From Candidatus Omnitrophota bacterium (lineage in GTDB: Bacteria > Omnitrophota > Gorgyraeia > Gygaellales > Profunditerraquicolaceae), in the NCBI GenBank assembly GCA_042570405.1, contig JBHPGR010000001.1, forward strand, positions 50,512-114,511: DNA of 64,000 nt, read 5' to 3'. Below, in pieces: positions 48,001-51,000 of this stretch. Made by a program: the position numbers. Within the stretch, counting starts at the first letter, position 1; every line of letters begins with the position of its first letter.

Positions 48001-51000
48001 TTTATCAGGATCTGTATTTGAGGTTCAAAAAGAAGTATCCGCGGGAAGACTTCCGGTTTTTCTTTAAAGCCAGGAATTACCACCTTGCTTACAGGTATGA
48101 TCTGGCTTTAAGTTCTTACAATTCCTTAATCGAGAGGTTCCCTGAGAGTGAATATGCCGGTGATGCTCATTTTTTTCTTGGCGTGCTTTATTTTGATACT
48201 GGTTTGTTAAGTAAATCAGCGGTTTTTTTCAGAGATTTGATCAAAAAATATCCGCAGGAATGGGGTTCCAGCGGCTACTATTACCTGGCCAAGGTTTATG
48301 CGGCGATGGGCAAGAAAAAGGAAAGCCTTAAGGCATATTCTAACGCAGATATATATGAGCTATCGGCTCAAACTATCGGTCAATTAACAAACAAAGGAGA
48401 CTAAGATGAGGATTTTGATCACCGGTGGCGCAGGGATGGTAGGAAGCCACAGCGCTGAATTTTTTGCCAAAAAAGACCCGAAGAATAAAGTCATCGTCCT
48501 GGATAACCTGATGCGTTCGAAGATATTCGGTTACGATAAAGATTCGGTGGAGTTTAACTGGAACTATCTAAAAGAATTCAGGAATATCGAGCGGATCAAG
48601 GGGGATGTACGCAATGAAAAGGACGTAAAGAAGGCGATCGGCAAAGGTGTAGATGTAGTGATCCACACCGCCGGCCAACCGGGTGTTCCATCAAGCGTGC
48701 GCATGCCGCTGGAGGACTTCAGCATAAACGCCTTCGGCACATTAAATGTGCTTGAGGCGGCGCGGAAAAGATCAAAGAATACGGTGATCATCTATTGCTC
48801 GACGAATAAGGTCTACGGAGAGAACGTCGATAGGATACCATTAGCGGAAAAGGATAAGAGGTATACCTTTAGAGACGTAGCGGGAGTCTCTGAATCGATG
48901 TCTACGGACCTCACCGGCCACACCCCATACGGGGTCTCGAAGCTCGTCGGGGATCTATACGTACAGGAGTACAGCTATATATACAAGATGAAGACAGGAG
49001 TATTCAGGATGTCCTGTACTTATGGAACGCGGCAGTTTGGTTTTGAGGACCAGGGGTGGGTGGCATGGTTTATCATCGCTTCACTCTTTAATAAGCCGGT
49101 GACGATCTACGGCAATGGTAAGCAGGTGCGCGACATGCTTTATGCCGGTGACCTGGTGGAGGCCTTCGATAGTTTTATCGGCAGCGACCTGGACCGGGGG
49201 CTCTTTAATATCGGCGGCGGCCCCAGGAATACGATTTCTCTACTTGAATTCCTGGATGAATTAGAGGAGCTGACCGGAAAGAGGCTCAAAGTGAATTTTA
49301 GCGACTGGCGGCCATCCGACCAGAAGGTCTATATAACTGACACCTCTAAGTTAGAGAGGGCTTTAGGCTGGAAGATAAAGATCCCGGTCAAGGAGGGGAT
49401 CAGGAAGTTGACGGAGTGGATAAGGAAGAATGAAAGCTATTTTACTTGACCGCGACGGCGTAATCAATCAGTATCCCGGTGATACCAGATACGTCACCTC
49501 TTGGGATGAGTTTGTATTCCTGCCCGGTGCGAAAGAGGCGATCGCAGTATTACATAAAAATAATTTCAAGGTGATCGTAGTTTCTAATCAGGCCGGGGTG
49601 AGCAAAGGGCTCTACACTCAAGAGGCGCTTGATAGCATAACCAGGAAGATGTCAGCCGCTGTCGAATCCGCAGGAGGCACGATCGATGCGGTTTACTATT
49701 GTACTCACCGCAACGAGGATCACTGCCCCTGCAGAAAGCCCAAGCCCGGCCTTTTAATTACTGCCGCAAAAGAGCAGGCATTCGATTTGGCTGAGACTTT
49801 TTTTGTGGGTGACACTATCCGCGACGTAAAGACCGCCAGAGCAGCCGGCTGCAAGTCGGTCCTCGTCCTCTCAGGCAAGGAGAAGGAAGAAAACAAAAAA
49901 GACTGGCAGGTGAATCCGGACCTGGTCTTTAGCGATCTTTACGAAGCAGTAAAGCACATCATCAAGCAATAATCTGTCGACCAATGAAGATATTTATTCT
50001 TTATGCCTCAGCCGGAGCCGGGCACCGCAGGGCGGCTGAAGCGATATACGATTATTTCAGTGCTCAGGACCCGGACCTGGAACTGAAGCTGGTGGATTCT
50101 CTTGAATTCGCGCATCCGATCTTCCGGGTAGGGTATACGCGCGGTTACTCGTTTCTGGTGAGCCACATGCCGCATATTTGGGCGCTTTTCTTTAGTTTTA
50201 CCTGCCTGCATCTTCCCCGCAGCTTCGTCGAGTCGGTCCGCTCTATCGTAAACAGGATGAGCGCTCAATGCCTGATCAGGCTCTTGATCCGGGAGAATCC
50301 CGATTGCATCATCTCGACGCATTTTCTCCCCTCCAAGGTAGCGGCATACCTGAAAAGAAAATCTCTGATCAAGTCTAGGCTTTTCACTGTGATCACTGAT
50401 TACATAATTCATCCCTTTTGGCTGGCCGAACTCGGTCTTGTTGTCCTTAGAAATCAGGAGCACTTTCCCAAGATTAAGCTCCTTGCCCTCGCGGGCCTCC
50501 TGCTTCTCAACCTCGATAATGTCACCCTTGGTGATATTATACTGTTTTGCTCCAACCTCAATTATTGCATACATTTTAGTTCCTCCTTAAATGGTATTTT
50601 GGTGTGTTCAAGGGTTGAATGTGTATTATACACCCAAAAACATTCAGGTCAAGCCAAAATTAATCAGATTTTAGCGTTTTTTATTGGTTGCTCTACGGGC
50701 GGGTAGCTTACCTAAGCTATCTGTATCTCTTCGATCTTTGAAGCGGGATTTGAGACTAAATTGACCCTTGTCCTGAACCTGCGCTCGATCCCGGTTATAT
50801 TGGATTTATCCTTAAGCAGGACCTCCACTACTGCAGGATTAAGGCTTAGTTTGACGTCTTTCGAAGGTTTGCTCTTGAGAAACCGCCTTAATTCCTTAAG
50901 CGCAGAGATGGCGATCGTGGTGGGAGAGCTGATCTTTCCCCTGCCGCGGCAGTAGGGGCAGGGCTGGTCAGAGAGCATCTGCACGGTCTTGTGCACCCGC

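What the first reader, a model, noticed from the sequence alone, without database searches (positions are those of the whole stretch)
49984..50706. Abrupt convergent junction: truncated GT28 (MGDG-synthase-like) gene meets a truncated rplU
On the plus strand, the last gene of the glycan supercluster has a convincing MGDG-synthase/UgtP N-domain (... 'PDCIISTHFLPSKVAAYLKRK...FTVITDYIIHPFW'). The homology ends after about 150 aa, and the remaining ~90 codons of the ORF are antisense read-through. On the minus strand, immediately downstream of rng, an ORF begins with a textbook L21 N-terminus ('MYAIIEVGAKQYNITKGDIIEVEK...'). It loses all L21 similarity after ~50 residues, exactly where the two fragments abut (about 50395-50435). 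rpmA, normally next to rplU, is absent. Both convergent genes are therefore cut at the same point. One explanation is a deletion or recombination scar marking the boundary of the ~50-kb glycan island. The other is a chimeric assembly join. An rplU pseudogene would need a second functional copy elsewhere.
Basis: partly seen in the sequence, partly recalled or inferred. Interest (0 to 1): 0.7.

Follow-up and report, generated by a model that had tools for sequence, protein, structure and literature searches.

The report
Fold-back mis-join inside a MAG contig
The two half-genes that meet head-on are real in the deposited sequence, but they most likely mark a place where the assembly wrongly joined two distant spots of one Omnitrophota chromosome in opposite orientation, so it is very probably not a biological deletion or a lost ribosomal protein gene.

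Summary
A GT28/MGDG-synthase-like gene stops after codon 149 (window 50430). An rplU gene on the other strand stops after codon 52 (window 50420). The two share an 11-nt core, GGCTGGCCGAA.

The deletion-scar reading fails. In the closest relative (GCA_042577285.1) and in two family-level relatives with long contigs, the order is pil–DUF2344–rng–rplU–obg–proBA–nadD–rpe–PGM–plsC–rpsA–tyrS–glycan cluster–gmhB–GT28–priA–fmt, all on one strand. rplU lies 39–50 kb upstream of GT28 in the two long contigs. A deletion cannot make a convergent joint from that order.

NCBI protein numbering shows the window's own 125,408-bp contig starts at about PGM/plsC–rpsA–tyrS. It runs through the glycan cluster to mid-GT28, then turns back to mid-rplU and runs out through rng and the pil genes.

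The missing piece sits on a separate 4,947-bp contig from what appears to be the same assembly: rplU 3' half, obg, proB, proA, nadD, rpe. Its partial L21 begins at codon 35, repeats the window's residues 35–52 exactly, and then continues as normal L21. That is a 53–56-nt overlap, as at a k=55 graph branch.

Best reading: a chimeric fold-back join (about 0.78). A real inversion or inverted duplication is not excluded without reads. Missing rpmA is normal for this lineage.

The parts
49430..49972 (+). gmhB-like HAD phosphatase (NCBI MFC1674356.1). It is the last intact gene before the joint.
   Evidence: Pfam HAD families. Accession and name. The same epimerase-gmhB-GT28 order is seen in relatives, and gmhB-like HAD before GT28 in a third.
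49984..50430 (+). 5' fragment (codons 1-149) of a GT28/MGDG-synthase-like glycosyltransferase gene. The intact orthologue is 371 aa.
   Evidence: PF06925 profile positions 1-135 of 169 only. 91% aa identity to P0001 over 62% of the ORF. DNA homology to L001 ends at 50430. P0001 has the full N-domain plus PF04101.
50420..50430 (.). 11-nt core GGCTGGCCGAA shared by both parent genes. It reads WLAE in GT28 and, as its reverse complement, FGQP in rplU. This is the joint itself.
   Evidence: The two BLASTN alignments overlap at 50420-50430. The sequence was read directly. The relative's versions are GGCTGGCTGAA (GT28) and GGCTGTCCGAA (rplU, reverse complement), each 1 nt off at a synonymous site.
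50420..50574 (-). 5' fragment (codons 1-52) of rplU (ribosomal protein L21). The intact orthologue is 105 aa.
   Evidence: PF00829 profile positions 1-51 of 99 only. DNA homology to L082 ends after ...GAGTTCGGCCAGCC. Adding the tail of P0367 gives a full 1-99 of 99 match at 114 bits.
50575..50711 (-). rng-rplU intergenic region with the rplU ribosome-binding site (AAGGAGG). It is nearly identical to the relative.
   Evidence: One 1-nt indel and one mismatch between the rng stop and the rplU start codon in the alignment.
50712..52157 (-). rng (RNase G, NCBI MFC1674357.1). Native rng-rplU synteny begins here.
   Evidence: Pfam RNase_E_G. 479 of 481 aa identical to the relative's protein. Accession. 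rng-rplU adjacency in about 30 Omnitrophota loci.
50431..50706 (+). Non-coding tail of the 240-aa plus ORF. It is antisense read-through of rplU and its leader.
   Evidence: No Pfam match beyond aa 148. No homologue covers it: coverage is about 62% for most hits, and the few higher values are still to full-length 360-375-aa GT28 proteins. The ORF is not in the protein collection.
50008..50419 (-). Non-coding tail of the 188-aa minus ORF. It is antisense read-through of GT28.
   Evidence: L21 homologues cover only 28-45% of the ORF. The alignment loses all L21 similarity after P52.

Best explanation
The joint is most likely an assembly artefact: a fold-back (inverted) chimeric join inside a deposited metagenome-assembled contig of an Omnitrophota bacterium.

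The native chromosome order has four segments on one strand. A is pil genes-DUF2344-rng-rplU 5' half. B' is rplU 3' half-obg-proB-proA-nadD-rpe-PGM 5' part, about 4.9 kb. B'' is PGM 3' part-plsC-rpsA-tyrS-glycan cluster-gmhB-GT28 5' part, about 100 kb. C is GT28 3' part-priA-fmt-gap-pgk-tpi-secG.

The deposited 125,408-bp contig is B'' followed by the reverse complement of A. The two are joined where GT28 and the reverse complement of rplU share up to 11 nt. B' was left as its own 4,947-bp contig. Its rplU end overlaps the last 53-56 nt of A, which is what an assembly-graph branch at k=55 produces.

Shown here:
- The two homology end-points and the 11-nt core.
- The one-strand native order in three relatives.
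- The contig membership of the flanking genes.
- The existence of the true rplU continuation.

Inferred:
- That the two contigs belong to one assembly. This rests on an adjacent accession block and shared strain-specific residues.
- The k=55 branch.
- That the joint molecule was an in-vitro chimera or an assembler short-overlap join rather than a DNA molecule of the cell.

Neither half-gene is therefore evidence of gene loss. rplU and, most likely, GT28 are probably intact in the organism.
For: 1. End-points. GT28 homology ends at 50430 and rplU homology starts at 50420, with an 11-nt shared core. Both fragments are free of stops and frameshifts right up to the joint, so there is no decay of the kind an old scar would show.

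2. Native order in relatives.
- The closest relative, GCA_042577285.1, carries pilO-secretin-DUF2344-rng-rplU (105 aa)-obg-proB-proA-nadD-rpe-PGM-plsC-rpsA-tyrS-flippase on one contig.
- The same relative carries gmhB-GT28 (371 aa)-priA-fmt-gap-pgk-tpi-secG on another contig.
- In GCA_964542785.1, rplU lies at 191.9 kb and GT28 at 230.8 kb of one contig, on the same strand.
- In GCA_028710715.1, rplU lies at 51.4 kb and GT28 at 101.6 kb, on the same strand.

3. The window's own contig. Proteins reported on a 125,408-bp contig are plsC MFC1674267, rpsA ..268, tyrS ..269, radical SAM ..314, flippase ..315, epimerase ..355, gmhB ..356, RNase G ..357, DUF2344 ..358, secretin ..359 and SDR ..371. 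The contig thus holds B'' forward and A reversed. No protein was called for either fragment.

4. The missing piece. rpe MFC1675361, nadD ..362, proA ..363, proB ..364 and 'L21, partial' ..366 lie on a 4,947-bp contig.
- The partial L21 (P0367) starts LGKVLLISKDNKTEFGQP|YLKGATV.
- It shares the window's L36 and I41, where the relative has I and V.
- Window residues 1-52 plus its tail make a full-length L21, PF00829 1-99 of 99.

5. Same genome on both sides. plsC and rpsA at the left end of the contig are 100% identical to the relative's proteins, and RNase G on the right is 99.6% identical. The lower identity of the left part is local to the glycan cluster.

6. Known artefact class. Inverted joins at 2-21 nt of complementarity are the documented signature of template-switch chimeras in MDA (PMC1855051).
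Against: - No reads, coverage or assembly graph could be examined, so support for the joint was not measured.
- An 11-nt overlap is shorter than any usual de Bruijn k. The assembler could not have invented the join from k-mer overlap alone. Either chimeric reads or a short-overlap gap-closing step is needed, and it is not known whether the sample was amplified.
- Reported MDA chimeras mostly join points less than a few kb apart (PMC4595205). Here the points are an inferred ~105 kb apart.
- The assembler preferred the joint path over the native path, which could mean the joint has substantial read support.
- The DNA of the 4,947-bp contig was not available. The 53-56-nt overlap is inferred from protein sequence and from the rule that a partial CDS starts at the contig edge.
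- A second break, inside PGM, is unexplained.
Confidence: 0.78

Rival explanations
1. A real balanced inversion of the roughly 105-kb segment between mid-rplU and mid-GT28. It would arise by illegitimate recombination at the 11-nt inverted microhomology and be present in all or part of the natural population.
For: The geometry is exactly that of one inversion joint: co-directional parent genes in relatives and a convergent joint in the window. Microhomology of 9-11 nt is present. The assembler carried the long contig through the joint.
Against: It would destroy rplU, which is nearly universal in bacteria and reported essential in E. coli (my own knowledge, not tested here). The native rplU breakpoint sequence with the window strain's own alleles exists in what appears to be the same assembly, so the inversion cannot be fixed. 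The rplU 3' half is attached to native rplU 5' sequence rather than to GT28 3', so the reciprocal joint is not seen. The joint was not found in JGI metagenome contigs.
Confidence: 0.08
2. A real inverted segmental duplication. A second, inverted copy of the pil-rng-rplU 5' region (at least 13.6 kb in the window, and about 25 kb if the inferred contig layout is right) would be inserted into GT28, while the native rng-rplU-obg locus stays intact. The assembler would collapse the two copies, giving a branch at mid-rplU.
For: It explains both continuations of rplU 5' without loss of L21. It also explains the absence of a reciprocal joint at rplU 3' and a contig end some 25 kb beyond the joint (the contig layout is inferred). 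Fold-back duplications form by template switching at short inverted repeats.
Against: A duplication of tens of kb is unusual for a small, streamlined genome. No relative shows it. There is no coverage information. It needs a second, unseen joint. The simpler artefact reading explains the same facts.
Confidence: 0.08
3. A deletion or recombination scar that removed the 3' ends of two natively convergent genes and marks the edge of a horizontally acquired glycan island.
For: Both genes are cut at one point. GC is lower in the left part, 0.426 against 0.490, and the tetranucleotide correlation is r = 0.71.
Against: The genes are co-directional in all three relatives, and tens of kb apart in the two where both sit on one contig. 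GT28 is followed by priA-fmt (then gap, directly or after two galT-like genes), and rplU by obg-proBA. A deletion between co-directional genes cannot give a convergent joint. The genes that lie between are still present in what appears to be the same assembly. The compositional shift lies inside the cluster, not at the joint: the last 10 kb before the joint have GC 0.46-0.49.
Confidence: 0.02
4. An inter-genome chimera, in which the left 50 kb and the right 13.6 kb come from two different organisms or species in the metagenome.
For: Identity to the same relative is 86% on the left (range 67-95%) and 95% on the right (range 92-98%), with 90.6% against 97.4% next to the joint. Composition also differs.
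Against: plsC and rpsA at the far left end of the same contig are 100% identical to the relative's proteins, as close as the right-hand genes. The epimerase next to the joint falls in the same 90% cluster as the relative's. Divergence is therefore a local property of the glycan cluster. The left part reaches 95% identity at 48983-49482.
Confidence: 0.04

Closest known systems
Inverted template-switch chimeras of whole-genome amplification (MDA), Lasken & Stockwell 2007, PMC1855051
   Same: Two stretches of one chromosome are joined in opposite orientation with the part between skipped, at a short complementary stretch. That paper reports more than 85% of rearrangements as inverted sequences with intervening deletions, and 2-21 nt of complementarity in over 70% of junctions. 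Here the figure is 9-11 nt.
   Different: It is not known whether this sample was amplified. Reported chimeric distances are mostly below a few kb (PMC4595205), whereas here the inferred distance is about 105 kb.
Chimeric or mis-joined contigs at branches of a de Bruijn assembly graph in metagenome-assembled genomes
   Same: Two alternative continuations of the same sequence are present in one assembly. The rejected continuation survives as a short contig that overlaps by about k nt (53-56 nt, which fits k=55).
   Different: The shared core (11 nt) is shorter than any usual k, so the joint k-mers must come from chimeric reads or from a short-overlap gap-closing or scaffolding step. From memory, unverified: SPAdes' gap closer accepts overlaps of about 10 nt.
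Microhomology-mediated illegitimate recombination giving inversions or fold-back duplications in bacteria
   Same: A short inverted microhomology lies at the breakpoint, and both genes are cut cleanly without further decay.
   Different: The native breakpoint sequence co-exists in the assembly. No reciprocal joint is seen. The event would inactivate L21.
The canonical bacterial rplU-rpmA(-obg) ribosomal protein operon
   Same: rng-rplU-obg synteny is present, and rplU has a strong ribosome-binding site.
   Different: In this Omnitrophota family rpmA is not between rplU and obg. Its absence from the window is therefore normal and unrelated to the joint.

Membership tests
Ribosomal protein L21 (Pfam PF00829) | Full-length match to the ~99-position L21 profile in a protein of ~100-105 aa | tested here: not met
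   The window ORF matches profile positions 1-51 only, at 49 bits. Window residues 1-52 plus the tail of P0367 match 1-99 of 99 at 114 bits, so the gene is split by the assembly rather than divergent.
Ribosomal protein L21 (Pfam PF00829) | Conserved genomic context (downstream of rng, upstream of obg in this lineage) | tested here: inconclusive
   The rng side is met. The obg side is not in the window but follows the partial L21 on the 4,947-bp contig.
GT28 / MGDG-synthase-like (UgtP-type) glycosyltransferase | N-terminal MGDG_synth domain (PF06925) complete | tested here: not met
   Profile positions 1-135 of 169 only. The orthologue P0001 has 1-169 of 169.
GT28 / MGDG-synthase-like (UgtP-type) glycosyltransferase | C-terminal nucleotide-sugar-binding domain (PF04101) | tested here: not met
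   Absent from the window ORF. Present in P0001 and in nearly all full-length homologues. No family of N-domain-only proteins was seen: the listed hits are nearly all 360-377 aa, with a few shorter sequences on short contigs.
Deletion scar | The two flanks are neighbours facing each other in the ancestral arrangement, and only the segment between them is missing | tested here: not met
   The parent genes are co-directional in three relatives and 39-50 kb apart in the two long contigs. The intervening genes are still present in what appears to be the same assembly.
Balanced inversion | A reciprocal second joint (reverse complement of rplU 3' joined to GT28 3') and absence of the native joints | tested here: not met
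   The native rplU breakpoint sequence is present in P0367. The reciprocal joint could not be searched for, because no DNA of the other contigs was available.
Assembly chimera / mis-join | The native continuation of the interrupted sequence exists elsewhere in the same assembly and overlaps the contig at the joint | tested here: met
   P0367 (MFC1675366.1, 4,947-bp contig) repeats window L21 residues 35-52 exactly and then continues as L21. It is followed by proB, proA, nadD and rpe, with obg presumably at MFC1675365. That both contigs are one assembly is inferred from the accession block and the shared alleles.
Assembly chimera / mis-join | A break in read or pair support, or clipped reads, at the joint | not testable with these tools
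   No reads or assembly graph were available.

The most novel reading that the evidence does not exclude
The joint is a real DNA molecule of the cell: a roughly 100-kb inversion or fold-back inverted duplication, made by template switching at an 11-nt inverted microhomology and segregating in a natural Omnitrophota population alongside the native arrangement.
Probability: 0.15. Interest if true: 0.35.

Novelty: not a real feature. Interest (0 to 1): 0.1.

Why it matters
This matters mainly as quality control. If taken at face value, the contig would suggest three things, none of which is supported:
- loss of ribosomal protein L21;
- loss of the GT28 lipid or glycan glycosyltransferase;
- a sharply bounded glycan island in an uncultured Omnitrophota lineage.

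The contig should be split at 50420-50430. The 4,947-bp contig should be placed between the rng side and the PGM/plsC side. This also corrects synteny, marker-gene counts and the apparent GC-skew switch at this point. Only if reads proved the joint real would it be a modestly interesting case of a large microhomology-mediated rearrangement caught in a natural population.

Tried and rejected
- Exact look-ups of four window proteins in the contig index (the 240-aa ORF, RNase G and gmhB) and of the partial L21 P0367 found nothing. The look-up of nadD P0373 returned only the relative's contig. The DNA of the window's own assembly could therefore not be fetched, and the 53-56-nt overlap rests on protein sequence.
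- A 34-nt pattern across the joint was searched in JGI metagenome contigs and gave 0 hits. This is uninformative about an artefact and only weakly against a widespread real variant.
- RNase G-based locus searches in GTDB species representatives and in JGI metagenomes gave nothing closer than 74-78% identity.
- Composition as evidence for a foreign island or a two-organism chimera was rejected. GC (0.426 against 0.490) and tetranucleotide use (r = 0.71) do differ between the sides. However, the shift lies inside the glycan cluster, not at the joint, and genes at both ends of the contig are equally close to the relative.
- The identity step at the joint (90.6% against 97.4%) was considered as evidence for two strains. 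It was rejected because the left part also reaches 95% and has 100%-identical housekeeping proteins at its far end.
- The short DUF2344 ORF (101 aa, half the profile) was considered as a second truncation. It was rejected because it is equally short (89-105 aa) in three relatives.
- No tRNA gene was found anywhere in the window, and Rfam gave no hit in 49000-57000, so there is no integration-site signature.
- The 119-nt repeat was considered as the cause of the mis-join. It was rejected because it lies 5 kb from the joint.
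Full report
**What is in the sequence**

All long ORFs from 1 to 50706 lie on the plus strand, and all from 50712 to 64000 lie on the minus strand.

- The last plus ORF (49984-50706, 240 aa) matches the MGDG-synthase N-domain PF06925 only over profile positions 1-135 of 169 (aa 14-148). 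It has no GT28 C-domain.
- The overlapping minus ORF (50008-50574, 188 aa) matches L21 (PF00829) only over profile positions 1-51 of 99.
- Homologues of the plus ORF are nearly all 360-377-aa Omnitrophota glycosyltransferases. Most cover about 62% of it.
- Homologues of the minus ORF are 103-106-aa L21 proteins that cover 28-45% of it.

The remainder of each ORF is antisense read-through of the other gene.

**Exact end-points**

The closest relative is GCA_042577285.1.

- BLASTN of the window against its contig JBHPDM010000005 (L001) runs from 39983 to 50430 at 85.9% identity.
- BLASTN against its contig JBHPDM010000025 (L082) runs from 50420 to 55302 at 95.3% identity (alignments).

The two homologies overlap in 11 nt, GGCTGGCCGAA (50420-50430). 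This core reads W-L-A-E in GT28 and, as its reverse complement, F-G-Q-P in L21. It occurs only once in the window.

In the relative the two parental versions are GGCTGGCTGAA and GGCTGTCCGAA. Each differs from the window at one synonymous site, so the true microhomology in this strain is 9-11 nt. Both fragments are intact (no stops or frameshifts) up to the joint.

**Native arrangement**

In the closest relative:

- GT28 (371 aa, with both domains) is followed by priA-fmt-gap-pgk-tpi-secG.
- On another contig the order is pilO-secretin-DUF2344 (89 aa)-rng-rplU (105 aa)-obg-proB-proA-nadD-rpe-PGM-plsC-rpsA-tyrS-flippase-GT2-GT2.

Two family-level relatives have both loci on one long contig, on the same strand, with rplU upstream:

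- GCA_964542785.1: rplU at about 191.9 kb and GT28 at about 230.8 kb.
- GCA_028710715.1: rplU at about 51.4 kb and GT28 at about 101.6 kb.

rng-rplU adjacency holds in about 30 Omnitrophota loci. In this family obg follows rplU directly, and an L27 probe hits only distant loci. The missing rpmA is therefore a lineage trait.

Because the parent genes are co-directional, a deletion cannot create the convergent joint. Only an inverted join can.

**The window's own assembly**

Exact-sequence look-ups place the window's proteins in NCBI on a 125,408-bp contig:

- epimerase MFC1674355
- gmhB ..356
- RNase G ..357
- DUF2344 ..358
- secretin ..359
- SDR ..371
- radical SAM ..314
- flippase ..315

The joint is therefore in the deposited record, and the annotators gave neither fragment a protein. 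The same contig also carries plsC MFC1674267, rpsA ..268 and tyrS ..269. In the relative these genes lie a few kb downstream of rplU.

A different contig of 4,947 bp carries rpe MFC1675361, nadD ..362, proA ..363, proB ..364 and '50S ribosomal protein L21, partial' ..366. That partial protein (P0367, 71 aa) reads LGKVLLISKDNKTEFGQP-YLKGATVKAVV....

- Its first 18 residues equal window L21 residues 35-52. They include L36 and I41, which differ from the relative (I and V).
- It then continues as normal L21.
- Window residues 1-52 plus its tail give a full-length L21 match, 1-99 of 99 at 114 bits.

**Inference from these facts**

The chromosome order is A (pil...rng-rplU 5'), B' (rplU 3'...rpe and the start of PGM, 4.9 kb), B'' (PGM/plsC...glycan cluster...GT28 5') and C (GT28 3'-priA...). 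The deposited contig is B'' followed by the reverse complement of A.

From the protein numbering (..267 to ..356 on the left of the joint, at about 1.1 kb per protein) the joint lies about 100 kb from the contig's left end. The two joined points are then about 105 kb apart on the chromosome. This distance is an estimate, not a measurement.

A partial CDS starts at the first full codon of a contig. The 4,947-bp contig therefore begins 0-2 nt before codon 35 and overlaps the window's rplU fragment by 53-56 nt, ending at the joint. That is what contigs meeting at a branch of a k=55 de Bruijn graph look like (inference; the DNA of that contig could not be fetched).

**Why an artefact is the best reading**

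- The intact rplU breakpoint sequence of the same strain exists, so the rearranged form is not the only form in the data.
- The rplU 3' half is attached to native 5' sequence, not to GT28 3', so there is no sign of the reciprocal joint that a balanced inversion needs.
- A fixed inversion would abolish L21.
- Both fragments are undecayed.
- An inverted join at about 10 nt of complementarity is the classic form of template-switch chimeras. [quoted passage not shown]

Weak points:

- No reads were seen.
- 11 nt is below any usual k, so chimeric reads or a short-overlap gap-closing step must be assumed. My recollection that SPAdes' gap closer accepts about 10 nt is unverified.
- MDA chimeras usually span less than a few kb (PMC4595205).
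- The assembler chose the joint path.
- A second break inside PGM is unexplained.

I put the artefact at 0.78. A real inversion variant and a real inverted segmental duplication (which would spare rplU) get about 0.08 each. An inter-genome chimera gets 0.04 and a deletion scar 0.02.

**Two-organism chimera and island boundary**

- GC is 0.426 on the left and 0.490 on the right, and tetranucleotide r is 0.71 against 0.95 within the left part.
- Identity to the relative is 67-95% on the left and 92-98% on the right.
- The last 10 kb before the joint have GC 0.46-0.49, like the right side.
- The epimerase next to the joint clusters at 90% or more with the relative's.
- plsC and rpsA at the far left end are 100% identical to the relative's proteins.

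The differences are thus a property of the fast-evolving, low-GC glycan cluster and do not reflect a change of genome at the joint.

**Searches that gave nothing**

- The joint sequence is absent from JGI metagenome contigs.
- No tRNA was found in the window, and Rfam gave no hit in 49000-57000.

**Verdict**

The deletion or island-scar interpretation is rejected, and the chimeric-join interpretation is favoured. Novelty: most likely not a real biological feature. Interest is low (0.1). The practical value is that this public contig should be split at 50420-50430.

Noticed in passing
window 55535-55651 (pilM-pilN intergenic); L082/L168 11544-11662: A ~119-nt element that folds into two strong hairpins (MFE -50.7 kcal/mol, z -7.3 on the plus strand; z -8.4 on the minus strand). 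It recurs at 90% identity between plsC and rpsA in the closest relative, in the same orientation relative to rng. There are weaker partial copies in other Omnitrophota loci (L105, L088, L128) and no Rfam family. It may be a small dispersed structured repeat or an RNA. The relative's contig starts about 230 nt from the copy's position.
   Followed up: partly
window 52135-52440 (-): The DUF2344/TIGR03936 'radical SAM-associated' ORF is only 101 aa (profile positions 1-96 of 176) and overlaps the rng start by 23 nt. It is equally short (89-105 aa) and in the same place in three relatives. This looks like a conserved stand-alone half-domain upstream of rng rather than a truncation.
   Followed up: partly
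L082 4720-6001; L165 7460-8748; L167 3001-4309: In this Omnitrophota family rplU is followed directly by obg, with no rpmA. An L27 probe hits only more distant loci, for example L022, L024 and L025.
   Followed up: partly
window 1-40000, e.g. 28001-30000 and 36001-38000: The glycan cluster has patches of very low GC (0.32-0.37). Where it could be compared (39983-50430), its identity to the closest relative is a mosaic of 67-95%. This includes a 100-nt perfectly identical stretch inside GT28 (about 50200-50300) amid roughly 90% identity, which suggests recombination among strains.
   Followed up: no
L163 4695-5913 (GCA_964542785.1): An AbiEi/AbiEii toxin-antitoxin pair is inserted between the gmhB-like gene and GT28 in a family-level relative. 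This spot at the end of the glycan cluster therefore tolerates insertions.
   Followed up: no
outside the window: junction of the 4,947-bp contig and the left end of the 125,408-bp contig (about L168 9710-9770, inside PGM): The contig lengths and the absence of a full-length PGM orthologue in the 90% cluster imply a second assembly break about 260 nt into PGM, even though the flanking plsC and rpsA are 100% identical to the relative's. Its cause is unknown, and no similar sequence was found in the window.
   Followed up: partly
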